This document shows, piece after piece, positions 1 to 37,669 of a stretch of 56,030 nucleotides of DNA. The translations under genes and the position numbers were made by a program. The stretch spans positions 1-56,030 of the IMG/VR virus record IMGVR_UViG_3300012953_000002; one strand, written 5' to 3'. This DNA comes from a virus (taxonomy: Duplodnaviria > Caudoviricetes). Numbering within the stretch: the first letter of the stretch is position 1; every line of letters starts with the position of its first letter. The notes under the pieces are model-generated. The model saw nothing but the letters and a program-made list of their open reading frames with translations. It did no database searches and was not told the origin of the DNA.

Positions 1-123
1 ACGTTTTAATATATCTTCCCATTGCTTGCTAGTCATTTTGCCATCAAATTTCTCATTCATCATGTCTTTAAAACGAGGATTTTTAGCTAATTCTGTCCAC
101 ATTTTATAAAAACCTACTTTATA
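1..123. repeat. Terminal direct repeat, copy 1 (circular assembly overlap)
   Basis: 1-123 is identical to 55908-56030 and lies inside a CDS. Confidence 0.97.
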
Positions 124-1932
124 AGTACTTTCTCTATTAAAGTTCTCAATACCTCTCATTATAAACCCTGATCTACCAGCTAAAAAGCTTGTACCATCAG
201 CAAATTGACTTAATTTACTTGGTTTTGTAAATTCTATTTGATTATTATCGTTTAATGTAATGTTTTGTTTGAATGCCTTAGAACCTTTATAATCTAATAA
301 TTCGGGGTTATCTATAGTAAACTTTAATCCAGACTCTCTCATTGATTCCTCAACATACACTTTCATTTGAGGATCTAAATTATAAAAATTTCTAGATTTA
401 TTCATCATTATAGGACCAAATTCTACTAAATTTAATAAATACTGAGTTGAGTTTTTTGCAGCAGATCTAATATTAAGACCTAGTTTTGATGCAAATTCTA
501 AATTTAATAAACCTCTAGAAAGATTGTTCCACCATTGAGAACCAGTAACATCTCTAGTTCCAGTTTGAGCATGATGTAAATCCATTACCATTTCAACAAA
601 TTGACGACCATATCCTTCCAAATCTTTACCTTTTTTAAAAGCTTTAGAAGCATCATTTAAAACTTTTCTAGTAACTAATTGAGTGTGAGCAATAAAATTA
701 AATCTATTAATTTCATCTAAATACCTTTTTACAGTAACAGGGAAATTCATAGAATATAATTTATCATCTAAATTCTTTGTTCTTGGTTTAATTCTTTTTG
801 ATAAGTATGTGTTAATATCACCAACTGCAGCTTCAAATAAATCAACTGTATCTATAGCTCCTTTAACGCCTTGTTCTGATCCAAATGCACTATCTGATGA
901 TAATTTCTGCAATTTAGGCATTAAACCATCTAAAAAATCAACATTTAAATCATATCTAAAATGAGGATAATATCCTATTTTCTCATCAGGAAGTAATTTC
1001 TTTCTTAATGTAGTTTCAACTTGTTTTAATTTTTCAATATTAGTAATACCTTTTGCAGCCATACCTTCTTTTACAGCATTAATATATGCTTCTACTCCCA
1101 ATTCTAAAGTGTGATAACTTTTATGCATCATTTCTATATAATTAGTTAATGCATCTGCCATTTGTGGAGTTTTTGTAAGCCCTGAATTATGAATAGAATT
1201 TTTAATTTTAATCATATCTTTTTCAGTTAATACTCTTCCTTCAGGACGCTTTGCTTTATCAACAAGTATATCCATAACTCCAGGTATTGACCTAATACCT
1301 TTTGTTTTGCTCTCAATCATAGTTATAAATTCTTTAAATACAACACCTTCACCTTCATTTAAAAATTTATCCATTCTAGCTTCAGATTCAGCAATTTGAC
1401 GATTAACATTCTTTCCATTAGCTTGATCAATTCTTAAATTTTCAATTTCTTGTTGATATTTTGTTGCTAATCTTTGCGACTTAACAATTGATTTTGTTGA
1501 TGGCAATAAACCTTCAATAGTTCCAGCTTCTGCTAAATAATTCATCATATTACTAAATTTTTCAGTATCATAACCTTGTCTACCTTTAAATTCATAATTA
1601 ATAGTTAAAAAATTGTTATATAATTCAGCTAAATGAGGATTACGCCTTACAACTCCTGACGTAGTATATAAATTTGAACCAAAAATACCTCCAATTTTAC
1701 CTTTTTTAATATGTTTTAACATATATTTCAATTCACCTTGAAATAGCTTTACTTGGGGTTTTGTTAGTTCAAAATTTTTCCATTCACTTGGAAGATGTCC
1801 AAATAATTGAGCAAACTTTTTTACTATAAGATCACTTGGATTTTTAAAGATTTTTTTAACTGAGGGATGTGACATAAAACGATTCCCTGCTTTATAGACT
1901 TCCATATAGTTTTTAGAAGGATTACAAGCCAT
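1..1932 (-). CDS. N-terminal part of a ~914-aa large virion/ejection-type protein continuing across the junction (missing from the ORF track)
   Basis: ATG at 1932 overlaps the upstream stop (TAATG). Reads open MACNPSKNYMEVYK...YKVGFYKMWTELAK, in frame with the 55095..56009 ORF (56009 = position 102; 1932-102 = 610 codons). Confidence 0.9.
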   Translation of the reverse strand, partial: MACNPSKNYMEVYKAGNRFMSHPSVKKIFKNPSDLIVKKFAQLFGHLPSEWKNFELTKPQVKLFQGELKYMLKHIKKGKIGGIFGSNLYTTSGVVRRNPHLAELYNNFLTINYEFKGRQGYDTEKFSNMMNYLAEAGTIEGLLPSTKSIVKSQRLATKYQQEIENLRIDQANGKNVNRQIAESEARMDKFLNEGEGVVFKEFITMIESKTKGIRSIPGVMDILVDKAKRPEGRVLTEKDMIKIKNSIHNSGLTKTPQMADALTNYIEMMHKSYHTLELGVEAYINAVKEGMAAKGITNIEKLKQVETTLRKKLLPDEKIGYYPHFRYDLNVDFLDGLMPKLQKLSSDSAFGSEQGVKGAIDTVDLFEAAVGDINTYLSKRIKPRTKNLDDKLYSMNFPVTVKRYLDEINRFNFIAHTQLVTRKVLNDASKAFKKGKDLEGYGRQFVEMVMDLHHAQTGTRDVTGSQWWNNLSRGLLNLEFASKLGLNIRSAAKNSTQYLLNLVEFGPIMMNKSRNFYNLDPQMKVYVEESMRESGLKFTIDNPELLDYKGSKAFKQNITLNDNNQIEFTKPSKLSQFADGTSFLAGRSGFIMRGIENFNRESTYKVGFYKMWTELAKNPRFKDMMNEKFDGKMTSKQWEDILKR

Positions 1933-4900
1933 TAACATTCTCCTTTCAATACATCGAGAGGTTGTTGTATTTCTTTAAATTCTGTTTCCCAATGATTTTC
2001 ATTTGTTTCTATCATATCTTTAGTTTGTCTTATTAAATTCTTCATTTTACTTCTTGATGTAGAACTCATTGCCTTATAAGGGTTTAAGCTAATAGATGAT
2101 CCTGTCAATCCATCTCCTCCAAGTAATACATGCATTGGATTATTAAACAAATCAAAAGGACGTAAAGGCTTAGCTTCACCTGTACGAATATCTATTGATG
2201 CAGGATATGCCTGGGACATAATAGGATCTAGTTTTGAATGAGCATCTGCCATTAAAGCTATAACTTTTTGTGGTAATAAATAACCATTTTCCATCATTAA
2301 TTGATTTGTATAAGATAAAACACCAGCTCCTTGATCAAATTGTTGACCACTAACTTTTTCATTTAAATTAGATAATGCTCTAAAAAATTGTATTTGCTGA
2401 TCGTATCTTCTACCCATTCCAAATGGATTAAATTCATCTATATGCTTTGTAGCTTTTATATCAGTATATTTGCTAAACATATTATCCATTTTCCAGTTAA
2501 ATCTAGGTGCACCATATGCTAGCATTTTATTTAATTCAAATACGTCTGAAGGTAGATTTTTACCTTTACCTGAAAATAATTGCCTATATTGAAAGTCTAC
2601 TTGAGCTAGATGTTGTAAAACTTTTGTAAATGTACTTGCTTCATATCTACCACCATGAGCTACATAAAATCCCTCTGGTAATTGATTAGCGTGAGCATCT
2701 AATAACCATCTTACAGCTCTTTTATAATTACCACTAGCTTTAATAGCCATTGGCATAACATTACCTTTATATCTACCAATATAATTCTGAATATGAGCAT
2801 TGGATGGCATTGCAAAGTCCCATAACCAAGTTAATCCATGCTCATTTACATTTCTAGTAATTGTTTCATGTATTCTTGTTTCAATATCTGTAATATCAGA
2901 AGTTTTTGAAAGAACTTTCATTGTTTCAGTATTGAAAATTGATCTTTTACCATAACCTTGACCATGCAGTTCGTTTAAATAAGCATATTCTTTTCCTACC
3001 ATTTTTCTTGCTTCTAACACACTTGAACGATAGCCAGGCTTATTATTCATTTCTCCATGAACACCTCTTGCAAAAGTTAATGCAAAATATGATGTTGTTC
3101 CAGCTATATAATTTTTATCGCTTTGAATATCAACTACTTCTAAATTCTTAATATCTTTAGTTTTTTTCCATTTACCTGCTTCATCTACTAATAAAGGTTT
3201 AATTTTATTCTGCATTTCGTTAATTTCTTCTTTAAGTTTTTTCAATTTTGCTGCTTTATTTTTAGCTCTAGATTTTTTAACAAAATACATTTGTTTTTTC
3301 AGTCTTTTAATTATATCTATATCATTTTTAATTTCACCTAATAGTTTAGGCATAAAATTATTCATTTCTGTAACATCAAATTCAGGATTATTTATTAATT
3401 CATGTACTAATTGATTTTCTCTTAATAAAGTTTCATTTGTTAATACTTTATTGTCAAGATGAAGTCTGTTAAATAAATCTGATTTAATAGCAAATAAAGA
3501 TTTTTCAGCAATACCACCAGCTCTTCCTTCAGAAATATCATTTAATTTAGATAATACATCTGGATGAAAAGGATTTCTTGTGCTGTATTTTTTATATCTA
3601 TATGGTATTTTATCTGTTTGACCAGTTGTTTTGTTATATTTATTATATGTCTGTGGTAAATAACCAAAATAATCCTTCAATATAGCTGCATTTGGACCTT
3701 TTTGCAATGAATATGATGCTTCTCCTGTATCAGGATGGAAATTTTGAGATTGCCATAATCCTTTAAACATATAATTTTGGAAATTAGCAGAATTTAAATA
3801 ATTAAAATAACGATTAGAAGCATTAAGCATTTGTTCATAAGTAGCTTTTTTAGGCTCTGCTTGAGAATAAACTTTTCTTCCAGGCATTACTTCTAATATT
3901 TTAGAATATTCAGACATTAATTTTTTAATAGATCTAATGTCTACTTCATTTAAATCTATTTCTCTTTCAATAGTTTCACCTTTTTCTTTTATATATTCTA
4001 CTTTTCTAAATAGTCTTACTCTTTTATCTTTATATGCTCCTATACCATTGTTTTTACTATCAAGAAACATTCTTAGATTATTAGTATTATAAGTTCCATC
4101 ACCTGTTTTAAATGTCTCTTTAGATATAGAATTATCTATTTTAGGGAATAAAAAGTCTGTCATCCAATCTCTAGTAGTACGTAATATTTTAGGATCTGGA
4201 GCAGAAGCATCAAGTAATATTTGACCTTCTAAAGCTTGTCTTAAATGAAAATCTGCATTATCCCAGTCCATTCTAATTTCCCAGTAGCCAACTTTACCTT
4301 CTGTTGTTTGATTATTTCTCATTAATACTTTTCTTGGTAAACCTTGAGAATCTCTAACAGTTGCAGCAATATTGTCAATATATTTTACTTTTGCTGATGT
4401 TGCCTGGACTACTCCACGTAAATTAGCAATTGATCTTTTATTTCCATTTAATTCTGACCATGCTTCATTATTTTTTCTTGCATTAGTAGACAATAGCTTT
4501 ATATTAGGTAAAACTTCTTTAGCTGTTTGAACGTCTGCAGTTGGTACAAATACTTTTTGTTGTCTTAGTATATTTTCAATCCAAGCATCACTACTTCCCC
4601 AGAAAAAATCAACTGTATCTATATCATAATCACCTTCAAATATATGATAAACATCATTAGAATTAACTATAGATTGATGACCACTACCTTTTACAAATCC
4701 TCTTAATCTTAATAAATGTAAATCATTCGGTCTTGTTCTTGGATAACGCAATGTTGATATACCTATATCATATCTAACCTTATCTGCGCCAGTAGTTGTA
4801 TTAAAAAAATCAAATACAGATTGCATAGGTTTTCCTGAAGTGACCATATGATTCCAAGATTTTTCAATTGTAGCATCTAATTTTTCTTTAGGCACATCTG

Positions 4901-7900
4901 CAAATATATCTTTCATGATTTTCTTATGTATATCTTTTGCATTAGATATTTCATTATTTTTAGTATTAATTACCCTTACATTAAAATTTCTACCATCAAA
5001 AACAGCATCAAATTCTCCGATAGTTTCAGGTATCATAATTTCACCATAACGCTCTATTTTACCTGTTTCATTGTTAAATAATGTCCCTTGCAAATCAGTG
5101 TCAGCTTTTTGACCAATAACAGATTTAGAACCAAATCTAATACGTTTACTATTAAAAGTGTACTCAGAAGTAGGAGCTAAAGCAGTATCTAAATATTTAC
5201 TTTTAAAAATATTCATTTTAGTAGGTTCACCAAATATATCTAAAGAAGCATAAGGCGATAATTTTAACCATTCTAATTGAGCACTCATATGATAATCTGT
5301 TCCATCTAACATTTCTAAAGCTTCATGATCGCCTTTAGACATTTTATCTTTAATTGTTCTTAATAATTCATTTTCTATAAATGGATTATTCATTGTACTT
5401 CTTATAGTTTTTAAATTTTCACCTAATTGTGGTGCAAAATAATCATTATATAATCTTTGCGCTAAATCAATATCAGTATGATTATTAATAATACTAGGTG
5501 CAATTTTACTAGGAGCATGATAATCAGGTATTTTTTGAACTCCTATAGAATTTAATGGAACTTTTATAATATTAGCATCATTTATTTTACCCATTTTATA
5601 TAAATCATTTTTTGCAACTTCTATCATTTTATCTCCAGCAACTTTTAGTTTGTCAGCTGAAGAAGCCATTAATATATCAAGATTAGGATTGGATTTAAAA
5701 AAAGGTTCTAATTTAGGATCATATACAAAAGCTGTTTTACCATACATTAAATTAGCATTTCCTTGAGAACTGATTATCGGTTTAAATATTTTAGAACCAG
5801 GAGCTGCATAATAAAAACCTAGAAAATCTGCCATTTCTTTAGAAATAAAAGTAATACTATCAAAAGCAGATTCATTTAATCTATCTGCGTAATAATCTTC
5901 CCATTTTTTACCTTTATTATGGAGTTCAAAACTTTCTTTTACACTCCAACCACCATTAGTAACTCCATCGTTAAACACACCTATTCCAAATTCTTTTGCT
6001 TTAGAATATTTTTTAGCAGCTTCTATTCCATCTACATCTATATCTTTGCCTGTTGTTGTTTTAATTATATCATTTAGTTTGGGATGAGCTTGAACCATTG
6101 CATCAACTAATTCACTATTAATTCTTTTAAATTTAGAAGTATTAAACATAGTTTGTCTACCTACAAGAAATTTATTTAAATCAGCTTCATTCATCGATAG
6201 ATAATCTGTAAATAAAGACTTATCTTTACCTTTAATCATAGATTCTGCCATAATAGCTCTAAATACCTGTTGAACTTCAGGATCAAATGTAGTAGAATTT
6301 TCAAGATTATTTTTAACAGTTTTTAACAAAGTTTCATTATCAGTACCTTTAACTTTGTCTATATTTTCTTTATATATTCTATCAAACTCTGTTCTAATTT
6401 TATCTATAACAGCACTATCTTTACCTATAATTAAAGATAATTTCATTCCAGGCATTTCCATTATTTGAATACCATTTTCAAATCCTTTAGCATTAGTTTT
6501 TTTAGCTAATAAATCCATAAACATTGCTTTTCTATCACTCATGATAGCTTTATCATAATTATTTTGTATTCTTGAATCTGCTTGGAATATATCAAACATA
6601 TCATATCTCAATCGAGAACTGTCTCCAACAAATCCCCAATCATATGTAATTCCATCTACTAAAGCAAATTTGATACCCATTTTATCTAATGCTTTATAAT
6701 AAGGATTATCATAAGCATGCATATGGGAGTCTTTACTTTGAACTTTTCCATTGCTAAAAAAATACACTGTTTTAGGTTTAGACTCAATGTGATTTGATAC
6801 AACTTGCATTAAACGATGATATGCTTCACGAGCTTCTCCATTGGGAATTGATAATCTATTAAAAGCATCAATAATACCATCAAATCCTTTAAATTTCATG
6901 TCAAATGTATATAATGTCTCATTTAAAAAATTTAACATTTTTTCAGGAGTAGGATTAATTTCGACATTTCCTTGATCCTTAGGTTTGTATAGTTTAAAAA
7001 ACTCAGGTAATGGCATGCTTGATTTATGATCACCAAGACCATATGAGTCTTCCATATATGATTCAACAGCTTTTTTACCTTGTTCCACCATTAAATCTAA
7101 TGAATCTAAATTAATACCATACTTTTCAACAAATAGTCTTAATTGTGTTTGAGTAGATTCTAGATTAAACTTTTCTTGATTAATTTCATACTTATAAGTG
7201 CCTTCTGTTTTACCATCACCTTTTTTAACTTCCAATGCACCTGTATTAATAAGCAATCTAACTAATTTAGAAGCTTTATTTGGGTATGCAGTTAAAAAAG
7301 TTAAGCCAGCATCTGCACCTGTTACATTTTCAGCAGAACTTAAAAAGAAAGCATTTAATTCTGTAACTGCTGTTCGATTCGCAGACAATTGTGCATCTTG
7401 TAAAACTGATTTTATAACATGAAAAGTAGAAGGATCAGTAATAGTGTAGGTATCACCCATAGCTACAACATTGTCTTTTAACCCAACTTTACCACTAATA
7501 TGCATTTCTGTAACATAGTTATTAAAATCATTTACTATTTCTCTGATTTCTGTATCAGTGCCTAAATATTCAATTTTATGAACCATCATACCAGTTGCTC
7601 TTTTACCACCAGGTTTATGCCAATGCATTAAAGAAAATGATTCACCTTCTTTAGGTGTTCCTAAGTTCATAAATTGCTGAAATACGTTTTTTTGCTCTGG
7701 ATTTAATTGAGAATTTTTAAAATTTTCATATACAACTCTTTGGACAATTTGATTTGAAAAATCTTGCAACAGATTTGATTCTACATTAATTCCTAAAGAA
7801 TTAAACATATTTTTTAATGATTGTATTTTGCTAGGATCTATATATATATCACCAACTTTTGTAGTTTGATATTGATTTTTTGTTCCAATAATTTCTAGTA

Positions 7901-10634
7901 ATGCACTAATAAATATTTTATTTTCATCAACTATTTTTTTATCTTTAATAACTTTTCTGTTTTTATCAATAAACTTAATTTGGTCTACACTTTCAATTAA
8001 CTTTAACCCAAGTCTTAATTCTGATTTTTCGCTTCTTAAAATACCCGCATCTATTAATAAAGATACAATTTCTTTATTACTAGGATGGCTAGCATCAAAT
8101 AAAGATGAAAACTTTGTAATCCTTTTATTTAAAATTCTATTTTGCATATACCCTAATAATTCATCAACACGAGAAAAAGAAAATGCATTGTTAGCTGTTT
8201 TATTTAAACCTAGCTCAACATTAATTGCACTTTCCATTGATTGTATTCTTCTGGCCAATGCTTCTAATCTAGCAATACCAGTATCTTCATTTTTCAAAAA
8301 TGCTGCTTGATTAATTTGTCGTTTATTTGCTTTTTGCAATTCTATTGTTGTTTTAAATATATTATCAACTTTATCTCTTAACTCATATAAAGCAGATTCT
8401 TGATTGTCTGGTTTTACATTTTTAAAATAATCAATTACTTCACCTAATTTTCCTTGTCTTGCAAGGCTAAAGAAATGAGAATCTATAACTAACATATTTG
8501 GTATTTCACCAATAGAACCATCACTAGAAGAAGCTTTTAATCTAAGTCCTTCTACTATTTCAACAACATCTAAAGCACTTTTTACTATTTCTGTTTCAAA
8601 TTTTTCACCTACAGTATCTGCAACTTTACGCAAATGATTTGAAAACTTGGTTATATCTCCATATTCCTTTAAAAGTAAATCATTAAATTCTTTTGCAGTT
8701 TTTTCAGAAATAGAATCTAAACTTTTAGTATATTTTTTTGCAGAAGCTCCTTGTAAAAACCTATAAAAATGATGGAACAAATCTAAACGTTCAGTAGATT
8801 GCGTAACAGATTTTTCACCTCCTATTTCCATTTTAAACACACCAGGTCTATTACCAACAGGACGTTCTATAGGAGTACTAAGAGCGTCAAAACTATTTGT
8901 AGTTAAACCTAAATTTTCTGCACGTTGTACAAAAGAATTTAATATAGGGTCTGAAGCAAAAGGATTTAAATTAGAACTTATAGCTGGATCTAAAGTAGGG
9001 ATTCTTCCTATAGGATTTGTAGTAATATATTTAGGAGGCAATAAATTCATAGTATGCAATTGACGTCTTAATCTTTGCATTTGTTCAGGAAACATATCTT
9101 GTCTTCTTGCTAAACCTTTTCTATTTAAAGCAGCTCCAAGTATAAAATTAACAGCTAAGTCTTCGCCACTAGTTTCTACACCATTCATCATATCATAAAA
9201 TCCTCTAGCATTCATTGCGGCACCACCTAGTACCATTTTAGGCCAATTGTCTTTTATATTTGCCCAAGAATTTTTTGTTGTCCATTTTAATAAATCATTC
9301 CCAACTTGATTTGCAGTTTTTTCAAATACTCTTCCTACAATTTCTTTTTTAGCATTATCTGTAACACTAATATTTAAATCATCTAATATTCTGATTGCTT
9401 CAGATTCAGGCTTACTTAAATCAAATCTATATTTTTTACCTTTATATTTAAAGTTTTGAATATTCATTCCTAATGGTCTTAAATCTGCAGCTAATAACGT
9501 AGATTGATGTCTAACATTAGCATAAGATGAATTAGCTATAATGTTTTTATGATTTGCTAATTTACCTCTAAGAGCAGAATAAAAATCTAATTTTCCTTGA
9601 CTAGATTTACCTGCTGAAGGTAACCATTTTAATGCACCAAAAAGACCACCAACTACTACTCCCCATTTTGGATGATCTAAATCATACTTATGTTCACCAT
9701 CAGATATAGCAACATGCAAGCCTTCTCTAGTTGCATCTAATACTCCAAACATAAACCCTTCATTAATAATAGATCCAATACCGTAAGCAAGTTTTTTGTT
9801 TGTCATAACTTCTGTAAAATAATCTGTAACACTAGTTATTGGTCTGTCTTTTAAGTATTTTAAATATACTTCACTTAATTGATCTCCTATTTTTGCATTA
9901 ATTAATCCTGATTTTACTCCATCATCAATACTTGTTTTTAATGATGTTTCAATTGCCTCTTTATAAGCATCTGCACTATTTAATTTTCCAGGTTTATGAG
10001 CCTTAGAAACTACTTCACCTAAATTATTATGTATACTTCTTCCATATACTTTTGCTCCAACATCATCCATTCCTTTGATTGCTGCAACATCTGTTCCAAT
10101 TTTTTTAAAGGCAGCTTCACGAGTTTCTCTACCCATCATTTTAGCAGTAGCAGTTTTAGTAAGCCAATTAATTCCTTTTAATCCAACTTTAGCAGGAGCA
10201 CCCGCTATAAATCCAGCAACAGTACCAGCTCCTGAAGCTAGTTTACCTGCAAAGTTTTCTGGACCTCCATAAAATTCTATTTCTTTACCAGTTTCAGGGT
10301 CAATTCCAGTTTGTTTTTCTTGACCTGTTAACCCAGTTCTTGCCTGTTCTAAATATTTATCTCCTTCTTCTCCAAGCCATTCATATTCATCTGCAAATCC
10401 TAAAGCTCCCAAACTTGCTTCATCCATAGCTGACCATAAAAAATTACCAAAAATATTTTGAGACCAATGAGTATCATCCATTGGTTGTCCTACAGCTTCT
10501 AATACAGATGAAGTGCCTGTTGTGCCTTTTTCAAAGCCAGGTCTAGCGGGGGTTCTTGCTGGTTGTTTCCCTAAACTTGTTTTACGATTTTCTTCTGCCG
10601 ACAAAAAGGCTTGAAGTTCTCTTTCTAAGCTCAT
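1932..10634 (-). CDS. Giant virion protein, putative single-chain two-barrel (DPBB) virion RNA polymerase
   Basis: 2900 aa. RYP at aa ~1963 then FEGDYDIDT (DxDxD at aa 2002-2006, nt 4617-4631). Upstream FDSITFIS, FKPIIS, YGKTAF and SSADK segments. Sits at the end of the structural module. Confidence 0.75.
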   Translation of the reverse strand: MSLERELQAFLSAEENRKTSLGKQPARTPARPGFEKGTTGTSSVLEAVGQPMDDTHWSQNIFGNFLWSAMDEASLGALGFADEYEWLGEEGDKYLEQARTGLTGQEKQTGIDPETGKEIEFYGGPENFAGKLASGAGTVAGFIAGAPAKVGLKGINWLTKTATAKMMGRETREAAFKKIGTDVAAIKGMDDVGAKVYGRSIHNNLGEVVSKAHKPGKLNSADAYKEAIETSLKTSIDDGVKSGLINAKIGDQLSEVYLKYLKDRPITSVTDYFTEVMTNKKLAYGIGSIINEGFMFGVLDATREGLHVAISDGEHKYDLDHPKWGVVVGGLFGALKWLPSAGKSSQGKLDFYSALRGKLANHKNIIANSSYANVRHQSTLLAADLRPLGMNIQNFKYKGKKYRFDLSKPESEAIRILDDLNISVTDNAKKEIVGRVFEKTANQVGNDLLKWTTKNSWANIKDNWPKMVLGGAAMNARGFYDMMNGVETSGEDLAVNFILGAALNRKGLARRQDMFPEQMQRLRRQLHTMNLLPPKYITTNPIGRIPTLDPAISSNLNPFASDPILNSFVQRAENLGLTTNSFDALSTPIERPVGNRPGVFKMEIGGEKSVTQSTERLDLFHHFYRFLQGASAKKYTKSLDSISEKTAKEFNDLLLKEYGDITKFSNHLRKVADTVGEKFETEIVKSALDVVEIVEGLRLKASSSDGSIGEIPNMLVIDSHFFSLARQGKLGEVIDYFKNVKPDNQESALYELRDKVDNIFKTTIELQKANKRQINQAAFLKNEDTGIARLEALARRIQSMESAINVELGLNKTANNAFSFSRVDELLGYMQNRILNKRITKFSSLFDASHPSNKEIVSLLIDAGILRSEKSELRLGLKLIESVDQIKFIDKNRKVIKDKKIVDENKIFISALLEIIGTKNQYQTTKVGDIYIDPSKIQSLKNMFNSLGINVESNLLQDFSNQIVQRVVYENFKNSQLNPEQKNVFQQFMNLGTPKEGESFSLMHWHKPGGKRATGMMVHKIEYLGTDTEIREIVNDFNNYVTEMHISGKVGLKDNVVAMGDTYTITDPSTFHVIKSVLQDAQLSANRTAVTELNAFFLSSAENVTGADAGLTFLTAYPNKASKLVRLLINTGALEVKKGDGKTEGTYKYEINQEKFNLESTQTQLRLFVEKYGINLDSLDLMVEQGKKAVESYMEDSYGLGDHKSSMPLPEFFKLYKPKDQGNVEINPTPEKMLNFLNETLYTFDMKFKGFDGIIDAFNRLSIPNGEAREAYHRLMQVVSNHIESKPKTVYFFSNGKVQSKDSHMHAYDNPYYKALDKMGIKFALVDGITYDWGFVGDSSRLRYDMFDIFQADSRIQNNYDKAIMSDRKAMFMDLLAKKTNAKGFENGIQIMEMPGMKLSLIIGKDSAVIDKIRTEFDRIYKENIDKVKGTDNETLLKTVKNNLENSTTFDPEVQQVFRAIMAESMIKGKDKSLFTDYLSMNEADLNKFLVGRQTMFNTSKFKRINSELVDAMVQAHPKLNDIIKTTTGKDIDVDGIEAAKKYSKAKEFGIGVFNDGVTNGGWSVKESFELHNKGKKWEDYYADRLNESAFDSITFISKEMADFLGFYYAAPGSKIFKPIISSQGNANLMYGKTAFVYDPKLEPFFKSNPNLDILMASSADKLKVAGDKMIEVAKNDLYKMGKINDANIIKVPLNSIGVQKIPDYHAPSKIAPSIINNHTDIDLAQRLYNDYFAPQLGENLKTIRSTMNNPFIENELLRTIKDKMSKGDHEALEMLDGTDYHMSAQLEWLKLSPYASLDIFGEPTKMNIFKSKYLDTALAPTSEYTFNSKRIRFGSKSVIGQKADTDLQGTLFNNETGKIERYGEIMIPETIGEFDAVFDGRNFNVRVINTKNNEISNAKDIHKKIMKDIFADVPKEKLDATIEKSWNHMVTSGKPMQSVFDFFNTTTGADKVRYDIGISTLRYPRTRPNDLHLLRLRGFVKGSGHQSIVNSNDVYHIFEGDYDIDTVDFFWGSSDAWIENILRQQKVFVPTADVQTAKEVLPNIKLLSTNARKNNEAWSELNGNKRSIANLRGVVQATSAKVKYIDNIAATVRDSQGLPRKVLMRNNQTTEGKVGYWEIRMDWDNADFHLRQALEGQILLDASAPDPKILRTTRDWMTDFLFPKIDNSISKETFKTGDGTYNTNNLRMFLDSKNNGIGAYKDKRVRLFRKVEYIKEKGETIEREIDLNEVDIRSIKKLMSEYSKILEVMPGRKVYSQAEPKKATYEQMLNASNRYFNYLNSANFQNYMFKGLWQSQNFHPDTGEASYSLQKGPNAAILKDYFGYLPQTYNKYNKTTGQTDKIPYRYKKYSTRNPFHPDVLSKLNDISEGRAGGIAEKSLFAIKSDLFNRLHLDNKVLTNETLLRENQLVHELINNPEFDVTEMNNFMPKLLGEIKNDIDIIKRLKKQMYFVKKSRAKNKAAKLKKLKEEINEMQNKIKPLLVDEAGKWKKTKDIKNLEVVDIQSDKNYIAGTTSYFALTFARGVHGEMNNKPGYRSSVLEARKMVGKEYAYLNELHGQGYGKRSIFNTETMKVLSKTSDITDIETRIHETITRNVNEHGLTWLWDFAMPSNAHIQNYIGRYKGNVMPMAIKASGNYKRAVRWLLDAHANQLPEGFYVAHGGRYEASTFTKVLQHLAQVDFQYRQLFSGKGKNLPSDVFELNKMLAYGAPRFNWKMDNMFSKYTDIKATKHIDEFNPFGMGRRYDQQIQFFRALSNLNEKVSGQQFDQGAGVLSYTNQLMMENGYLLPQKVIALMADAHSKLDPIMSQAYPASIDIRTGEAKPLRPFDLFNNPMHVLLGGDGLTGSSISLNPYKAMSSTSRSKMKNLIRQTKDMIETNENHWETEFKEIQQPLDVLKGEC

Positions 10635-10644: not shown

Positions 10645-12108
10645 TTATCTTGGCAACTCTAATTGCTCTATATCAGTATTTAAAAATGTTTCAAGATTAT
10701 CGCTTTCTTGAATTTCATTTGATAAAATATTTAATAACTCATCAAAATTACTTGTTCTATCTTCATCAGATAATTTATTAATTTCTTCATTTAAAGCATC
10801 AACAGATATTTGATTTAATGTTTGAGAAATGCTATATTTTTCATTATGGTCAAATTGATATGCTTTCATAACATTATGAATCTCTTCTTTTTTATTTAAA
10901 ATAAAATCTAAATCTTTGTTTCCATGATCATCTAAGTCTAAAATTTCACTAGACCATTGAGAACTATATTCAGGAAACATTTCTTGAAGTTCTGCATATC
11001 TATCATATAATTTATCATTGCTATAAATTCTCATACCTATATCATATATCTCATTAACATATTTTTGTAAATTTTTACGCATATTCTTTTGAACAAATTC
11101 AGGCATTTCCTTTAATTTTTTATGAAATTCTAAATAAGAATCAGTATTACCTGTGCCTATTAAAGCTCTTTCATTTGCATAAAACCAATCTCTTCCATTG
11201 TTTTTAAATTGTAATGCTTCTTGCAATATAATACTTTTCATAGTTTGCATATTAAAACCTTCTTTAAGACCTTCTACAAAATCACCTTCAGTATCTAAAT
11301 CAAATTCATCTAAAGCATCATAAAATCCAGGAATTTTTTCTGTATCAGATATTTTTTGACCATAAATTAAATTATGTATTTCAGGATTACTTGCAACTAT
11401 TCTACTTTTAGTAACATTTTCAAGGCTTAAATCTGCTTTTCCAATAGTAGTATCATCCAAAGAAGAAGATAACTGTATAGGACCAGCATCTAAACCTTCT
11501 TCTCTTGCAATCGATTGAGGCATATCTACCTCAACTAAAGAACCGTCTTCTGTGATTTCAGGGAATGTTACAATATTATCTTTAACATTTGATAATGGAG
11601 ACATAGCATTAGCCCAAATTAAATCTAATTTATTCCTATTTGAAAAAGTTAATCTCCTAGGGTCATCAGTTATATTTCCATACTCTGGAGTAATCATCAT
11701 TCCTCCAGCATACTGCACATCTTCACTCATACCATTAAAAGACTTATGTAGATCATGTATTTGATTTCTTACATCAATATATTCATTAAAATCCTCATTA
11801 GCATTGGTTTTAGCTTCATGTAATACTAATTCTCGGCTTAAATTTAGTAATTCCTGGTCATATTCTTGTTTAGTAGGGGTATAGTTTGCATTTGGTGCAA
11901 TAAGGCTTAAATGACCCTTATCTTTGATTTCTTTATGTAATTTTGCTAATTTAAGAGAATCTTCTTTTGCAGTTTTCAAACTATCAGCTACTCTTAAACT
12001 ATCAGCTACTCTTAAACTATCAGCTAATTTTGTGCTATCAGCTAAATTTATAGATTCTTGCAATTCTTTTTCTTGTTGTACTGCTTTGTTTAAAAATATA
12101 CTACTCAT
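10645..12108 (-). CDS. Putative ejection/internal virion protein with ADSLRV repeats
   Basis: 487 aa, acidic, coupled to neighbours, adjacent to the giant protein. Confidence 0.55.
   Translation of the reverse strand: MSSIFLNKAVQQEKELQESINLADSTKLADSLRVADSLRVADSLKTAKEDSLKLAKLHKEIKDKGHLSLIAPNANYTPTKQEYDQELLNLSRELVLHEAKTNANEDFNEYIDVRNQIHDLHKSFNGMSEDVQYAGGMMITPEYGNITDDPRRLTFSNRNKLDLIWANAMSPLSNVKDNIVTFPEITEDGSLVEVDMPQSIAREEGLDAGPIQLSSSLDDTTIGKADLSLENVTKSRIVASNPEIHNLIYGQKISDTEKIPGFYDALDEFDLDTEGDFVEGLKEGFNMQTMKSIILQEALQFKNNGRDWFYANERALIGTGNTDSYLEFHKKLKEMPEFVQKNMRKNLQKYVNEIYDIGMRIYSNDKLYDRYAELQEMFPEYSSQWSSEILDLDDHGNKDLDFILNKKEEIHNVMKAYQFDHNEKYSISQTLNQISVDALNEEINKLSDEDRTSNFDELLNILSNEIQESDNLETFLNTDIEQLELPR
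11978..12044. repeat. 18-bp tandem repeat encoding ADSTKL-ADSLRV-ADSLRV-ADSL
   Basis: aaactatcagctactctt twice, plus partial copies. Confidence 0.9.
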
Positions 12109-13615
12109 TTGGATTCCCTTGTAATTCTATTAATAATTTAGACATTGGAATACCAGTCGCTCTGGTAATCGGTAAAGAACTATCAGTATACATACCTAAA
12201 AATTCTAAAGCATATTGGTCATTTTGGTCAATATATTTTTGCTCTAAAGATAATAAAGAGTTAAATAACTTGTTTTGTGCATCAGGACCTAAATTTTCTA
12301 TAGCTACTTCATTAAATATTATAGGATCTAAAGTTTGTAAATCATCTAATACAGTATTTCGACCATATCCCATTATTTTAGCATCGTTCATAAAGCCCAT
12401 TTGAGTTACGGTTATACCTTCATTAATTCTTTGTCGATTAATATCTTCAAAATCTCTAACTTGTTGTAAAAAATGTTTTTCAATTCTAGGCAAATAACTT
12501 AATTCTTCTGCTAATTGTTGATTAAACCCTACATACATTACTCCTTGATCATCTTGTTGGGGTGTACTAGTGTAAAATTTATAAGCATCTTCAAATCTTT
12601 GATAACCTTCAAAGTATAAACTATATACATTAGGAAAGCTATCTTTAAATTCTTCTATGGTAAAATCAGTTTCTTGCATTAATTCAGGTCTACTTGCATC
12701 ATTAGTTACATCTACAGTAAGACCTTTATCAGAAAAATGAGCTTTATTTTTAAGCATCCCACCAAATTCGTCTTTATCGCTATAAGCACTTTCAGCAATT
12801 TTTCTCCAATTTTCAGTATTTTCAAACTTGTTTTTCCATCCTGCATCACTTCTAAGTTCTGCATCCCTTTCTCTAATAAGTTTATTTTGCTCTTGAATCA
12901 TTTTAGTTACTTCACCAGGACCAACAATATTATTTTTTTGAATTATATTGCCTTGAGCATCTCTTATGGTAGCTCCTGCAAGACCTTCTTTAAAATAACC
13001 ATATGTTTTCTTTAATTCTGATATATCACTTGTACTTAAAGCATAAAAACCATCTTCTGTTAATGGAATATTACCTACAAGCTTTTTTTCATGTAAATCT
13101 AAATATTCATCTTCAGATAATAATACATTCCCATGATAAGGAGAATTTTCATCCTTTACAGGTTTTAATAAACCTCCCCAATTATGTCTATTAGCAATCT
13201 TTAAAGCTTCACCTGTTGCTTGATCTCCAAATAAATACGCATCATACTGGTCTATATCTTCATAAGAAATTAAACCTGGAGTATAATCTAAATCGTATCC
13301 TCCATATGTAAATAACCTATCTTCAGCATGTGGTGATAAAGTACCTTCATTAGGAACATATTCTTCACCGCTTCTTCTTGATTTATAAGCATGCATAACA
13401 TCATTTTGATAATCTTTAAATGCATCTGGGTCATTAATAACATCTCCATAGTCATAATGATTTATTTCTGGAGCAAAATTAGATACACGGTCTAATTCAG
13501 ATATTCTAAATCTTCTATTAAATTGTTCGTCTTTTTCAATTCTTTCACTATCAGCTTGGTATTTACCTGCGCTAATAATCATAAGTTTATTAAATGCACT
13601 ATTTAAATCTGCCAT
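12101..13615 (-). CDS. Putative ejection/internal virion protein
   Basis: 504-aa ORF; call rests on position and coupling only. Confidence 0.5.
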   Translation of the reverse strand: MADLNSAFNKLMIISAGKYQADSERIEKDEQFNRRFRISELDRVSNFAPEINHYDYGDVINDPDAFKDYQNDVMHAYKSRRSGEEYVPNEGTLSPHAEDRLFTYGGYDLDYTPGLISYEDIDQYDAYLFGDQATGEALKIANRHNWGGLLKPVKDENSPYHGNVLLSEDEYLDLHEKKLVGNIPLTEDGFYALSTSDISELKKTYGYFKEGLAGATIRDAQGNIIQKNNIVGPGEVTKMIQEQNKLIRERDAELRSDAGWKNKFENTENWRKIAESAYSDKDEFGGMLKNKAHFSDKGLTVDVTNDASRPELMQETDFTIEEFKDSFPNVYSLYFEGYQRFEDAYKFYTSTPQQDDQGVMYVGFNQQLAEELSYLPRIEKHFLQQVRDFEDINRQRINEGITVTQMGFMNDAKIMGYGRNTVLDDLQTLDPIIFNEVAIENLGPDAQNKLFNSLLSLEQKYIDQNDQYALEFLGMYTDSSLPITRATGIPMSKLLIELQGNPNE

Positions 13616-21000: not shown

Positions 21001-21570
21001 TCCTGCTCCTAATGTTATAGAACCATGAGATCCACTACCACCTGGTGCTTTTGTACCAGAAGAAAGTACTGTATCACCACCACTATTATTTCCTGAAGCA
21101 GAACCAGCTCCTAATATTTTTAAATCAGCTCCACTATCTCCATTTTCTAATTTTATTGTAGACCCAGTTGTTCCCCATGTAGGTTGTAGAGATATATCAC
21201 CTATTGATATTTTACTTACAGTATTGCTAGATGCTACATCAAAAACTTTAGAATCAATTGTTAAATAATCAATATTTGAAACACTAAATTTAGCTTTTTT
21301 CATATATAAATCATTATCAAGATTTAATTGACGTATATGATCGTCAGTTACTTTTTCTTTTAAAGCTGCTTTATTTCTATATCCAATTGTTTTACCATGA
21401 CCAAAATTATACCACTTACCACTTATTTTACCAAATAATATGTTTACACCTTTTACAGTAGTTAATCTTAAATCCCCATCTCTACCTTCTGAATTAGAAG
21501 GTAATTTAGTTTGTACGGATAATTTATCAGAACTAATTCTTTGTCTTATTTTTGTATTAATATTACTCAT
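18070..21570 (-). CDS. Tail fibre protein with internal repeats
   Basis: 1166 aa, Gly/Thr/Ser/Asp-rich; three DTNTNQLTTF and two FLxKDGTW repeats; C-terminal LLIKQDGSGSR...FPGGANPTLT...DILSF fibre-type module. Confidence 0.8.
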   Translation of the reverse strand: MSNINTKIRQRISSDKLSVQTKLPSNSEGRDGDLRLTTVKGVNILFGKISGKWYNFGHGKTIGYRNKAALKEKVTDDHIRQLNLDNDLYMKKAKFSVSNIDYLTIDSKVFDVASSNTVSKISIGDISLQPTWGTTGSTIKLENGDSGADLKILGAGSASGNNSGGDTVLSSGTKAPGGSGSHGSITLGAGDSGTSAATALNVNAASTVLSGTLTINTINTDTAGDNYLVEVSGVVKKRTPAEVLSDIGAQAAGSYITGSGSLSAQDLTDIGNLSGTNTGDQIIPNNYLRDNEDDTTSGTITAAGFTTTGTWTFDDATSGTVGITTVHTGSSFTDNDTSLMTAGAIKEKIEAYGYSTTSGDITGVTAGDGLSGGGSSGGVSLAVNVDDSTIETNSDTLRVKDSGITLAKMANIADNTILGRHDEGDAGAPIALSASSVRALLNVANGATANTGDITGVTITTDSGGGSAASDTGGSADFSILGSSGVGVTNSGTTITAVAVPAEIDHDSLNNWSANKHIDWTASSAGTIHASNYVDNDTTYSVMASGNSYAAGLVAAGSGTHSNQFLRKDGTWVVPTDTDTNTNQLTTFTVSATTDSNATTISQGDDLMFAAGTGITCETTADGTVTITSTVTDTNTQLSTEEVQDIVGAMFASNTETRIAATYVDGGVGAGKINLVVDDMTADTNTNQLTTFDVDADSGTAETIAHGNTLQLTGGTGIDTVVSSTDTVTFALSSGAALSNLGGGSGATFLKKDGTWATPTDTDTNTNQLTTFTLTADSGSNQTIQHGNTLDIAGSSPIVTAVGATDTVTVSLDDPINLSELNESTDATDDKILLWDESGSAWKYMTLDNLQDSIDTTGGGGGGGSNYVTDDADDTMAGTLTIDKDSTATTSSSVYGIDIDLDQTGAVAGGQTISMYGMRISLNDDAPTHVQGHYPVGIENNVISNKTGTSFAMGMYNLIKGGDADYGIINNVGENGDGTTGSIGIQQTVSNDGIDYRQNSSADIGDYFSMRTIANGETTLATVDDDGTKLANLHMEIQGFVEFDGCGVGFDLVTPTYNATDTDVDFRTGNKQFVTFGAGNITDLNLYFPPTSGNYTLLIKQDGSGSRAITNYKAFDRTGTAAGSSTVLFPGGANPTLTTTANKVDILSFFWDADNEIAYGVATVNF

Positions 21571-35321: not shown

Positions 35322-35356
35322 TATCTCTCCTTTATGTTAAGAAATTTGAGTATAAT

Positions 35357-37656: not shown

Positions 37657-37669
37657 TTAATCTCCTTAA

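What the first reader, a model, noticed from the sequence alone, without database searches (positions are those of the whole stretch)
1932..10634. 2900-aa virion protein with a two-barrel RNA polymerase active site in a 56-kb phage
Seen: R-Y-P about 39 aa before G-D-Y-D-I-D, plus upstream Asp- and Lys-bearing segments. Known: crAss-like virion RNAPs are single-chain DPBB enzymes with a DFDID motif, encoded among large ejected proteins in genomes of roughly 100 kb. Inference: this is a divergent virion RNAP in a much smaller phage with no DNA polymerase and strong SD usage, so possibly a lineage outside classical Crassvirales.
Basis: partly seen in the sequence, partly recalled or inferred. Interest (0 to 1): 0.82.

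Follow-up and report, generated by a model that had tools for sequence, protein, structure and literature searches.

The report
Giant two-barrel RNA polymerase, small marine phage
A complete 56-kb marine phage encodes a 2,900-residue protein whose core folds like the RNA polymerase that crAss-like gut phages inject into their hosts, although it shares no detectable sequence similarity with it and sits in a much smaller, different kind of phage.

Summary
The ORF at 1932-10634 (minus strand) encodes 2,900 aa, with R-Y-P at 1963-1965 and G-D-Y-D-I-D at 2001-2006. No Pfam, PHROG, PDB-sequence or cultured-phage match exists. About 240 representative clusters of marine viral proteins of about 2,800-3,100 aa are homologous, and the Asp triad is kept in 62 of 62 long representatives.

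An AlphaFold2 model of aa 1470-2270 (pLDDT 84) finds the phi14:2 crAss-like virion RNA polymerase gp66 as its top solved structure. QDE-1, RDR2 and cellular RNAP large subunits follow.

The phage is complete (55,907 bp plus a 123-bp terminal repeat) and uses Shine-Dalgarno sites like coliphage N4, unlike phi14:2. Its TerL, portal and capsid proteins fall in other PHROG families than phi14:2's, so it lies outside Crassvirales by the sequence tests run here.

An unexpected find bears on packaging. The protein has a single cysteine, its last residue. The conserved downstream 914-916-aa protein has a single cysteine at residue 3-5. The same terminal-cysteine pattern runs through gp67, gp66 and gp65 of phi14:2 and their crAss001 counterparts.

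Verdict: a new, sequence-unrelated family of single-chain two-barrel RNA polymerases. Packaging and ejection are inferred, not shown.

The parts
1932..10634 (-). Gene for the 2,900-aa protein (P0001), a candidate virion RNA polymerase. The stop codon is at 1932-1934.
   Evidence: Homologues: 25 proteins, 80 loci, and 240 representative clusters at E<=1e-3.
3825..6227 (-). aa 1470-2270, the modelled polymerase core holding both predicted double-psi beta-barrels.
   Evidence: AlphaFold2 on the 66-sequence alignment A2 gave pLDDT 84.0 and pTM 0.84. The Foldseek PDB top hit is 6vr4_A at E 1.4e-7, then QDE-1, RDR2 and Pol I. BFVD gave crAss-like phage proteins.
5520..5867 (-). aa 1590-1705, the first barrel (beta-subunit-like, DPBB-B). 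It holds the invariant K1618 (5781-5783), K1633 (5736-5738) and K1662 (5649-5651).
   Evidence: The model shows six strands and two helices here, with pLDDT blocks of 71-96. The lysines are invariant in 20 of 20. This is the most conserved 50-aa window together with 1951-2000. The K-to-K spacing of 15 equals that of gp66 K1012/K1027.
4590..4772 (-). aa 1955-2015, the second barrel (beta-prime-like, DPBB-A). It holds R-Y-P (4740-4748), N1970-D1971 and the metal-binding D-Y-D-I-D (4617-4631).
   Evidence: A windowed hhalign puts R-x-P, N-D, G and D[YF]DxDK in register with the gp66 family at E 0.037, against 0.27 for control windows.
1935..1937 (-). Codon of C2900, the only cysteine of the protein and its last residue.
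   Evidence: A cysteine lies within the last 12 residues in 69 of 69 loci with a complete 3' end and is the sole Cys in 68 of 69. 54 of 54 representatives over 2,700 aa have exactly one Cys, in the last 15 residues. It is the only invariant column of the C-terminal 300 aa.
1..1938 (-). 5' part of the conserved downstream gene (914-916 aa). The likely start is the ATG at 1930-1932, overlapping the upstream stop as TAATG. The gene runs across the terminal repeat and ends at 55095. Its only cysteine is residue 3 (or 5 from the first ATG).
   Evidence: A homologue stands next to the polymerase gene in 66 of 80 loci. An N-terminal Cys is present in 62 of 66, and in the other 4 once an in-frame TTG or GTG start is taken. 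C3 is invariant in A6.
55095..55907 (-). 3' part of the same downstream gene, the last gene of the minus-strand operon.
   Evidence: The frame is continuous across the 123-bp terminal repeat.
10645..13615 (-). Two upstream genes (487 aa and 504 aa) whose products have no cysteine. They are candidate further ejected proteins.
   Evidence: They have no Pfam or PHROG match and are found by tblastn in only 4 of 80 loci.
21570..25325 (-). Gene for a 1,251-aa protein, conserved upstream in the family and carrying 5 Cys. It is probably a tail component, not part of the cysteine-free set.
   Evidence: tblastn hits in 55 of 80 loci. Cysteine count. No family match.
27012..27782 (-). Metallophosphoesterase gene inside the structural operon.
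   Evidence: phrog_221 at E 4.5e-24. This is the same PHROG and the same relative place as g075 of phi14:2.
32750..41028 (-). Head and packaging module: TerS 40297-41028, TerL 38563-40152, portal 35357-37656 (split by a frameshift) and major capsid protein 32750-34318.
   Evidence: PHROG matches. The portal is a single frame of 766-777 aa in 4 of 5 related genomes; the fifth is cut by the contig end.
1..123 (.). Direct terminal repeat, identical to 55908-56030. The unique genome is 55,907 bp.
   Evidence: IMG/VR classes the record as having direct terminal repeats and as 100% complete.

Best explanation
The 2,900-aa protein is a single-chain two-barrel (double-psi beta-barrel) RNA polymerase. 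[quoted passage not shown] The first barrel (about aa 1590-1705) supplies invariant lysines. The second (about aa 1955-2015) supplies the R-x-P...N-D...D-Y-D-x-D loop, whose three aspartates bind the catalytic Mg2+.

I infer the following mechanism. The protein is made late, as the second-to-last gene of the structural operon. It is packed into the capsid together with its downstream 914-916-aa partner and probably the two cysteine-free proteins upstream. It is pushed through the tail and the periplasm ahead of the DNA. It then transcribes the early genes on the plus strand (about 41.7-55 kb) without needing the host polymerase.

Shown here: the fold, the conservation of the active-site residues, the gene's position, and the near-total lack of cysteine. 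Inferred: RNA synthesis, the DNA template, packaging and ejection.
For: FOLD
- The model of aa 1470-2270 has pLDDT 84.0 and pTM 0.84.
- Foldseek against the PDB gave 14 matches at E<=0.001. Listed ranks 1-12 are gp66 of phi14:2 (6vr4_A, E 1.4e-7, probability 1.00, 562 columns), QDE-1 (E 3.7e-6 to 1.6e-5) and plant RDR2. Cellular, ASFV, AR9 and phiKZ RNAP large subunits follow.
- BFVD gave 23 matches at E<=0.001. After two close relatives these are mostly unnamed viral proteins and large proteins of crAss-like phages (cr272_1, cr118_1, cr50_1 and others).

ACTIVE SITE
- R1963, P1965, D1971, D2002, D2004, D2006, K1618, K1633 and K1662 are invariant in 20 of 20 homologues at 19-47% identity.
- The Asp triad is present in 62 of 62 representatives over 2,000 aa.
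- Conservation peaks exactly at aa 1601-1650 and 1951-2000. The gp66 preprint says the same of gp66: all strictly conserved residues lie around DFDID (passages).
- The R-to-D spacing is 39 here, 40 in 49 of the 54 representatives with the regex motif, and 39 in gp66 (R1322, D1361).
- The fourth motif residue is never Gly: A in 51, V in 20, I in 6, Y in 2 and F in 1 of 80 loci. gp66 has DFDID there as well.

POSITION
- The gene order is TerL, portal, MCP, metallophosphoesterase, large proteins, polymerase, last large protein.
- phi14:2 has the same order, and g065-g067 there are annotated as found in virions by MS/MS.

EJECTION SIGNATURE
- The four adjacent proteins (504, 487, 2,900 and 916 aa) hold 2 Cys in 4,807 residues. 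The other 32 proteins hold 100 in 10,917. Binomial P = 6e-17.
- Cysteine suppression is described as a conserved feature of the ejected proteins of N4-like phages (PMC11445570, passages). N4 gp50, gp51 and gp52 have none.
Against: - There is no sequence-level link to any polymerase. Pfam, PHROGs, PDB by sequence and by profile, and tblastn against 50,697 phage records all found nothing.
- hhalign of the family profile against gp66 alone, and against a 26-sequence gp66-family profile, gave probabilities of 0.1% and 1.5%.
- The windowed hhalign that puts the motifs in register is weak: E 0.037 against 0.27 for unrelated windows.
- The same approach did not support my by-eye assignment of a bridge helix and trigger loop.
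- Foldseek TM-scores are low (0.32 normalised to the query, rmsd 10 A).
- No residue-level structural alignment could be obtained because the VIA libraries were absent. That DYDID superposes on DFDID is therefore inferred from motif and spacing.
- No proteomic, transcript or biochemical data exist for this phage.
- No phage-specific early promoter motif was found. The one candidate occurs twice against 2.3 expected.
Confidence: 0.75

Rival explanations
1. It is an active two-barrel RNA polymerase but is not packaged. It would be made in the cell and transcribe middle or late genes, like the non-virion polymerases of phiKZ, AR9 or P23-45 gp64.
For: No virion proteomics exist for this phage. AR9 and phiKZ non-virion RNAP subunits are among the weaker fold hits (E 4e-3 to 8e-3).
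Against: - The gene is second to last in the structural operon, far from the early and replication genes on the other strand.
- A 2,900-aa protein with one cysteine, flanked by cysteine-free or single-cysteine proteins, fits passage through the periplasm.
- The closest structure, gp66, is virion-packaged.
Confidence: 0.08
2. The two-barrel core has another template or product. It could be an RNA-dependent RNA polymerase like QDE-1 and RDR2, a primase-like enzyme, or a PolD-like DNA polymerase that makes up for the missing DNA polymerase gene.
For: - QDE-1 and RDR2 are as good fold matches as gp66 within about one order of magnitude.
- No DNA polymerase was found among the ORFs scanned. Only a primase-helicase, Erf and a polynucleotide kinase turned up.
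Against: - No PolD chain appears among the 50 listed fold hits.
- The gene sits among structural genes, not replication genes.
- gp66, the best match and the only phage member with biochemistry, is a DNA-dependent RNA polymerase (passages).
Confidence: 0.07
3. It is mainly a structural or ejection (channel-forming or cargo) protein that keeps a polymerase-like fold without catalysis.
For: About 2,100 of the 2,900 residues lie outside the modelled core and match nothing. Atlas leads for the N-terminal 1,470 aa were weak, scoring 0.81-0.87: LPD domains and P22 gp16.
Against: An inactive relic would not keep all three aspartates in 62 of 62 representatives, nor the lysines, over sequences down to 19% identity while the rest diverges.
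Confidence: 0.05
4. The motif is a chance match and the ORF is an unrelated giant protein.
For: A DxDxD match is expected 0.75 times by chance in this protein, and a second, unconserved one exists.
Against: Fold hits are restricted to two-barrel polymerases, with a probability of 0.99 or more for each single-chain polymerase listed (ranks 1-12 and rank 22). The motif is invariant.
Confidence: 0.01

Closest known systems
gp66 of Cellulophaga phage phi14:2 (PDB 6VR4), the virion RNA polymerase of crAss-like phages
   Same: - It is the best structural match.
- It is a single chain with two barrels.
- It has R-x-P 39 residues before D-[FY]-D-I-D, N-D after the R-x-P, and two invariant lysines 15 residues apart in the first barrel.
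- A non-Gly residue stands at motif position 4.
- The gene is second to last in the structural operon and is followed by a large protein with an N-terminal cysteine.
- It is nearly cysteine-free, with a cysteine at the extreme C-terminus.
   Different: - There is no detectable sequence similarity, even profile against profile.
- The window's protein is 2,900 aa against 2,180 aa.
- It lacks the N-terminal cysteine that 115 of 120 gp66-family proteins carry.
- There is no gp67-like upstream partner ending in cysteine.
- The downstream partner lacks the HExxH that gp65 has.
- The phage is 56 kb against 100 kb, uses Shine-Dalgarno sites, and has TerL, portal and MCP of other PHROG families.
QDE-1 (Neurospora) and RDR2 (plants), the eukaryotic RNAi polymerases
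   Same: They share the single-chain two-barrel fold and are the second-best group of structural matches (E 4e-6 to 3e-4).
   Different: They are cellular enzymes of about 900-1,100 ordered residues with a DxDGD motif. They have no virion context and no cysteine suppression.
N4 gp50 and the Schitoviridae virion RNA polymerases
   Same: - They are giant (about 3,400-3,500 aa) cysteine-free proteins encoded at the end of the late operon and ejected into the host.
- The window's TerL is in the same PHROG as N4 gp68 (phrog_38) and aligns at 23% identity over 364 aa, E 1e-8.
- N4's portal has a secondary match to the window's portal family phrog_156.
- TerS, TerL and portal have similar sizes.
   Different: By recalled knowledge, N4 gp50 has a T7-like single-subunit polymerase domain, not a two-barrel fold. 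The window's core hits only two-barrel enzymes. N4 gp50 has no cysteine at all. The MCP family differs: phrog_1357 against phrog_1328.
Flavobacterium phage Fpv3 gp32, a 4,287-aa fusion of the gp67-like and gp66-like parts
   Same: It carries the identical motif DYDID (at 3116). It has one cysteine in the whole protein, the penultimate residue. The next protein, gp33, has Cys3.
   Different: It is detectably related to gp66 (tblastn E 5e-22), unlike the window's protein. Its genome is 88 kb and its host is a Flavobacterium.

Membership tests
Single-chain two-barrel RNA polymerases (gp66 / QDE-1 kind) | Two double-psi beta-barrels in one polypeptide | tested here: met
   The AF2 model has pLDDT 84. 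All 14 PDB matches at E<=0.001 are two-barrel polymerases, with gp66 first. Around aa 1594-1701 the model has six strands and two helices. The P23-45 paper legend gives that composition for a DPBB (passages).
Single-chain two-barrel RNA polymerases (gp66 / QDE-1 kind) | Invariant DxDxD metal-binding triad in the beta-prime-like barrel | tested here: met
   D2002, D2004 and D2006 are invariant in 20 of 20. The triad is present in 62 of 62 long representatives.
Single-chain two-barrel RNA polymerases (gp66 / QDE-1 kind) | Conserved basic residues in the beta-like barrel | tested here: met
   K1618, K1633 and K1662 are invariant. Their equivalence to gp66 K1012 and K1027 rests only on the equal spacing of 15.
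Single-chain two-barrel RNA polymerases (gp66 / QDE-1 kind) | Bridge helix and trigger loop after the second barrel | tested here: inconclusive
   A 38-residue helix (aa 2052-2089) and further helices follow the second barrel in the model. hhalign did not align them to gp66's annotated elements, and no structural superposition was available.
Single-chain two-barrel RNA polymerases (gp66 / QDE-1 kind) | Mg2+-dependent, template-dependent RNA synthesis | not testable with these tools
   This needs biochemistry.
crAss-like virion RNAP family (gp66 orthologues) | Detectable sequence homology to gp66 | tested here: not met
   phmmer and profile searches against the PDB found nothing. hhalign gave probabilities of 0.1% and 1.5%. 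None of the 120 listed gp66 relatives belongs to the window's family.
crAss-like virion RNAP family (gp66 orthologues) | Encoded at the end of the structural operon beside large virion proteins | tested here: met
   Gene order, compared.
crAss-like virion RNAP family (gp66 orthologues) | Presence in virions | not testable with these tools
   There is no cultured member. Cysteine suppression is indirect support.
Order Crassvirales | Orthologous MCP, portal and TerL | tested here: not met
   The window has phrog_1328, phrog_156 and phrog_38. phi14:2 has phrog_11589, phrog_6547 and phrog_6681. BLASTP of MCP and portal against phi14:2 gave E 0.27 and 0.37; TerL matched only 41 aa at E 0.003. Against this, a low-confidence MCP model (pLDDT 48.8) had crAss001 MCP as its only PDB hit at E<=1e-3.
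Order Crassvirales | IHF gene in the conserved structural block (review PMC10136315, passages) | tested here: not met
   Pfam found no DNA-binding family in 10 small ORFs between 25.4 and 32.8 kb, nor in the larger ORFs. A divergent IHF could be missed.
Order Crassvirales | Genome of about 90-190 kb and a Bacteroidota host | tested here: not met
   The genome is 55,907 bp and complete. Related complete genomes are 54-57 kb. Shine-Dalgarno use is 36 of 51, like N4 (14 of 20) and unlike phi14:2 (4 of 43). The host itself is unknown.
Schitoviridae (N4-like phages) | Virion RNAP with a T7-like single-subunit polymerase domain | tested here: not met
   There is no Pfam or PHROG polymerase match. 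The modelled core matches two-barrel enzymes only. That N4's domain is T7-like is recalled, not tested here.

The most novel reading that the evidence does not exclude
The terminal cysteines are the coupling points of a redox-sensitive train of ejected proteins.

The proposed mechanism:
- In the oxidising world outside the cell, the C-terminal Cys of one cargo protein is disulfide-bonded (or otherwise thiol-linked) to the N-terminal Cys of the protein encoded next.
- The chain here would be 2,900-aa polymerase ~ 914-aa partner. In phi14:2 it would be gp67 ~ gp66 ~ gp65, and in crAss001 gp47 ~ gp50 ~ gp49.
- The unfolded proteins are then pulled through the tail in a fixed order.
- The link is cut by reduction once they reach the cytoplasm.
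- Gene fusions in some phages and disulfides in others would be two ways of making the same chain.

Evidence:
- Every internal cysteine has been purged and only these termini keep one (69 of 69 and 66 of 66 loci; 54 of 54 representatives; 99 of 120 gp66 relatives have exactly the two terminal Cys).
- Donors and acceptors are matched in adjacent genes.
- In Fpv3 the gp67-gp66 fusion has lost exactly the junction pair.
- In crAss001 the pattern survives an inversion that separates gp47 from gp50.

If true, the pattern is also a shared derived trait. It would tie this marine lineage's polymerase module to that of crAss-like phages despite the absence of sequence similarity.
Probability: 0.3. Interest if true: 0.85.

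Novelty: new variant of a known kind. Interest (0 to 1): 0.8.

Why it matters
Single-chain two-barrel RNA polymerases carried in virions have so far been described for crAss-like phages of Bacteroidota, with genomes of about 90-190 kb, and as a tape-measure fusion in Thermus phage P23-45.

This case shows a large family with the same core fold and active site: 240 clusters at 50% identity, from marine viral contigs. It has no sequence similarity to the crAss enzymes. It occurs in 50-57-kb phages whose packaging genes look more like those of N4-type podophages and whose translation signals point to hosts outside Bacteroidota.

Three consequences follow.
- It widens the known range of this polymerase class.
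- It gives a second, independent sample for asking which residues and elements are essential.
- It bears on the proposal that eukaryotic RNAi polymerases descend from a phage enzyme.

The family evolves fast. The polymerase is 22-56% identical across genomes whose capsid protein is 54-71% identical.

The terminal-cysteine rule, seen here and in crAss-like phages, was not found in the papers searched. It suggests a directly testable mechanism for ordered protein ejection.

Tried and rejected
SEARCHES THAT FOUND NOTHING FOR THE 2,900-AA PROTEIN
- Pfam (one chance hit at E 0.66) and PHROGs.
- PDB by phmmer and by profile.
- tblastn against 50,697 phage records.
- ESM Atlas for aa 1-1470 and 2330-2900. 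Best scores were 0.87 and 0.76, below the tool's own 0.9 line.

PROFILE-PROFILE COMPARISON WITH THE GP66 FAMILY
- It was not significant.
- In narrowed windows it gave E 0.037 for the DPBB-A window and 0.13 for the DPBB-B window, against 0.27 in two control windows.
- I assigned a bridge helix (about aa 2052-2089) and a trigger-loop helix (about aa 2126-2142) by eye from similar-looking consensus strings. hhalign did not reproduce this, so I drop it.
- I first took the R-to-D spacing of 39 as identical to gp66. Across the family the usual spacing is 40 (49 of 54), so it is only near-equal.

EARLY PROMOTERS
- Repeats in 41-46 kb gave a candidate motif.
- It occurs twice in the window against 2.34 expected. 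Rejected.

HOST
- MCP relatives in genome bins sit in MAGs labelled Dehalococcoidia, Poseidoniales (two) and Roseobacter.
- These are inconsistent and probably mis-binned, so they give no host.

PLACEMENT BY CAPSID FOLD
- The MCP model was poor (pLDDT 48.8).
- Its single PDB hit at E<=1e-3, the crAss001 capsid protein, is a lead only.
- The MCP sequence profile instead hit the 399-aa capsid protein of podophage VP1 at E 3.8e-6.
- Portal BLASTP against N4 and phi14:2 was not significant for either.

DOWNSTREAM 916-AA PROTEIN
- Only a sub-threshold FokI-domain hit, no HExxH, and no BLASTP similarity to gp65.

PREDICT_COMPLEX
- The C-terminal 300 aa of the polymerase with the N-terminal 300 aa of the downstream protein gave a score of 0.11 against a mark of 0.32.
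- The tool's verdict was 'no answer'. This is neither for nor against binding.

LITERATURE
- Searches found no description of this roughly 56-kb marine family.
- Searches, plus word searches for 'cysteine' and 'disulfide' in the gp66 preprint and the crAss001 atlas, found no mention of terminal cysteines.
- The journal version of the gp66 paper and all supplements, including its table of conserved residues, could not be seen and may bear on both points.


Full report
WHAT IS THERE

The window is a complete phage genome. Its first and last 123 bases are identical, leaving 55,907 unique bases. The source record is classed as having direct terminal repeats and as 100% complete. GC content is about 30%.

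Genes from about 1 to 41 kb lie on the minus strand. In the direction of transcription they read as follows:
- TerS (40297-41028)
- TerL (38563-40152, phrog_38)
- a 232-aa gene
- portal (phrog_156, split into two ORFs)
- a 300-aa gene
- major capsid protein (32750-34318, phrog_1328)
- small genes
- a metallophosphoesterase (27012-27782, phrog_221)
- proteins of 1,251, 1,166 and 697 aa
- five proteins of 218-504 aa
- the 2,900-aa protein (1932-10634)
- a last gene of 914-916 aa that runs across the terminal repeat

The plus strand (about 41.7-55 kb) holds a tRNA-Met, a polynucleotide kinase, a ThiF/JAB pair, Erf, a primase-helicase and a radical-SAM protein like spore photoproduct lyase. No DNA polymerase or second RNA polymerase was seen among the ORFs scanned.

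THE OBSERVATION

R-Y-P is at aa 1963-1965 and G-D-Y-D-I-D at aa 2001-2006.

A DxDxD match alone is expected 0.75 times by chance in this protein. A second, unconserved one is present at 1531. The weight therefore lies in conservation and fold.

HOMOLOGUES

A word-indexed search gave 25 proteins of 2,131-2,989 aa from marine metagenomes. None had a Pfam domain or a functional name.

An exhaustive profile search gave 240 representative clusters at E<=1e-3, 174 at E<=1e-10 and 112 at E<=1e-30. IMG/VR gave 92 confirmed loci, of which 80 were kept. Many lie on contigs of 48-57 kb, and five related genomes of 54-57 kb are rated 99-100% complete.

In 20 full-length homologues (19-47% identical), the invariant residues include K1618, P1619, K1633, T1634 and K1662. 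They also include R1963, P1965, R1966, T1967, P1969, D1971, E2000, G2001, D2002, Y2003, D2004, D2006 and D2009.

Conservation peaks at aa 1601-1650 and 1951-2000. All 62 representatives over 2,000 aa keep D-x-D-x-D. Seven distant ones read DHDxD; the two whose upstream context was printed carry R-N-P-H-T-K-P-D.

FOLD

I cut aa 1470-2270 and the matching parts of 65 loci into alignment A2. AlphaFold2 gave pLDDT 84.0 and pTM 0.84.

The model shows six strands and two helices around the invariant lysines (aa 1594-1701). A second barrel-like unit lies at aa 1955-2011. R-x-P sits just after its first strand, and DYDID sits in the loop before its fourth strand.

Foldseek against the PDB ranked phi14:2 gp66 first (6vr4_A, E 1.4e-7, probability 1.00). 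QDE-1, RDR2 and the largest subunits of cellular, ASFV, AR9 and phiKZ polymerases followed. Nothing else reached E<=0.001.

Against predicted viral structures, two close relatives came first. The matches after them were mostly unnamed viral proteins and giant proteins of crAss-like phages.

TM-scores are low (0.32), as expected for a multi-domain piece. No residue-level superposition could be had.

RELATION TO GP66

No sequence method links the two families. At motif level they agree on several points:
- R-x-P lies 39-40 residues before D-[YF]-D-x-D.
- An invariant N-D follows the R-x-P in both.
- Two invariant lysines lie 15 residues apart in the first barrel in both.
- A non-glycine residue stands at motif position 4.

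A windowed hhalign puts these in register but only at E 0.037, against 0.27 for control windows. My attempt to name the bridge helix and trigger loop failed the same test.

IS IT PACKAGED AND EJECTED?

This is inferred from two things.

The first is position. phi14:2 has the same operon order, down to a phrog_221 metallophosphoesterase in the middle and one more large gene after the polymerase. Its g065, g066 and g067 products are annotated as found in virions by MS/MS.

The second is cysteine. The 2,900-aa protein has one cysteine, the 916-aa protein has one, and the 487-aa and 504-aa proteins upstream have none. The other 32 proteins of the phage average 0.92%, giving P = 6e-17 for the four together. 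N4 gp50, gp51 and gp52 have none. Suppression of cysteine is described as a conserved feature of the ejection operon of N4-like phages, thought to reflect passage through the periplasm (PMC11445570, passages).

THE TERMINAL CYSTEINES

The one cysteine of the 2,900-aa protein is its last residue. The one cysteine of the downstream protein is residue 3 if the ATG that overlaps the upstream stop (TAATG) is the start.

This holds throughout the family:
- 69 of 69 loci with a complete 3' end have a Cys within the last 12 residues. It is the sole Cys in 68 of them.
- 54 of 54 representatives over 2,700 aa have exactly one Cys, in the last 15 residues.
- 62 of 66 downstream proteins have exactly one Cys, at residues 3-19. 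The other four gain it at residue 5 if an in-frame TTG or GTG start, preceded by a Shine-Dalgarno site in the two I examined, is used.
- In the C-terminal 300 aa (49 sequences, 12-63% identical) the cysteine is the only invariant column.

The same rule runs through crAss-like phages:
- phi14:2: gp67 has 1 Cys, its last residue. gp66 has Cys3 and Cys2179. gp65 has 1 Cys, Cys3.
- crAss001: gp47 has 1 Cys, at 2339 of 2,341. gp50 has Cys5, Cys1334 and Cys2404 of 2,412. gp49 has 1 Cys, Cys5.
- Fpv3: the gp67-gp66 fusion gp32 has 1 Cys in 4,287 aa, the penultimate residue. gp33 has Cys3.
- Of 120 gp66 relatives, 99 have exactly two Cys, one in the first 12 and one in the last 12 residues. Another 13 have both plus one or two more. 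Eight lack one of them.
- crAss002 fits less well: gp32 ends in Cys, but gp33 has 7 Cys and none near its annotated start.

I found no mention of this pattern in the texts I could search. A head-to-tail thiol link between successive cargo proteins is my reading of it. It is untested. The complex prediction gave no answer.

WHICH PHAGE LINEAGE?

The evidence points in more than one direction:
- TerL belongs to phrog_38, like N4 gp68, and aligns with it at 23% identity over 364 aa (E 1e-8). With phi14:2 TerL it shares only the Walker A stretch.
- Its best cultured relatives, at 23-26% identity, are Alicyclobacillus phage MMB025, N4-like Vibrio, Erwinia and Burkholderia phages, and Lentibacter, Roseobacter and Celeribacter podophages.
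- The portal family phrog_156 is also N4's second-best portal family.
- The MCP has one weak tblastn hit among cultured phages and a profile hit to the capsid protein of podophage VP1. A poor MCP model pointed to crAss001 instead.
- No IHF was found.
- Shine-Dalgarno motifs precede 36 of 51 ORFs against a 10% background. The same script gives 4 of 43 for phi14:2 (equal to background) and 14 of 20 for N4.

The lineage is therefore outside Crassvirales as that order is recognised by sequence. It probably infects hosts outside Bacteroidota. It nevertheless shares with crAss-like phages the operon layout, the polymerase fold and the terminal-cysteine rule. Whether that reflects deep common descent or exchange of the polymerase module is open.

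VERDICT

The protein is best described as the founding example of a new, sequence-unrelated family of giant single-chain two-barrel RNA polymerases. Fold and active site are established with high confidence; packaging and ejection are inferred. The family belongs to a widespread marine group of phages of about 50-57 kb.

Noticed in passing
window 36860-36870 (between ORFs 36871-37656 and 35357-36859, minus strand): The portal gene is split into two ORFs in different frames. In 4 of 5 related complete genomes it is one open frame of 766-777 aa; the fifth is cut by the contig end. This is either an assembly error or a real frameshift.
   Followed up: partly
window 47254-48859 (+): Adjacent genes encode a JAB-like protein (weak, E 0.0036) and a ThiF-family E1-like protein (E 1.4e-16). 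Together they look like a ubiquitin-like conjugation or deconjugation pair in the early region.
   Followed up: no
window 52670-53533 (+): A radical-SAM protein matches the spore photoproduct lyase family (PF20903, E 1.7e-23). This is unusual for a marine phage and may be a UV-damage repair function.
   Followed up: no
window 27012-27782 (-); L081 18229-19152: A metallophosphoesterase of the same PHROG (221) sits in the middle of the structural operon both here and in phi14:2 (g075). It is the only protein of the two phages that shares a PHROG family among those scanned.
   Followed up: partly
L021, L098, L099 (IMG/VR contig of 104,488 bp): The one roughly 104-kb contig among the relatives carries two capsid genes about 57 kb apart. 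It is probably two related genomes joined in assembly, not a double-sized phage.
   Followed up: partly
loci L001-L080 versus L084-L163: Across the same group of phages the capsid protein stays 54-71% identical while the polymerase falls to 22-56%. One example is the 56,748-bp contig of L007 and L096, at 25% against 66%. The polymerase evolves much faster.
   Followed up: no
L175 4123-16986 (Flavobacterium phage Fpv3 gp32): This 4,287-aa fused protein carries the identical DYDID motif at residue 3116. Fpv3 is listed under Caudoviricetes; Fipvunavirus, without an order, although it is usually counted as crAss-like.
   Followed up: partly
window 1930-1950 (-): The last codons of the polymerase gene (AAA GGA GAA TGT TAA) contain the Shine-Dalgarno site of the next gene, and the stop overlaps its start (TAATG). 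The two genes are probably translationally coupled.
   Followed up: no
L169-L172: Close relatives of the capsid gene sit in metagenome bins labelled Dehalococcoidia, Poseidoniales (archaea, two bins) and Roseobacter. These are most likely viral contigs binned by mistake.
   Followed up: no
window 42501-42569 (+): A tRNA-Met (CAT) gene lies at the start of the plus-strand region.
   Followed up: no
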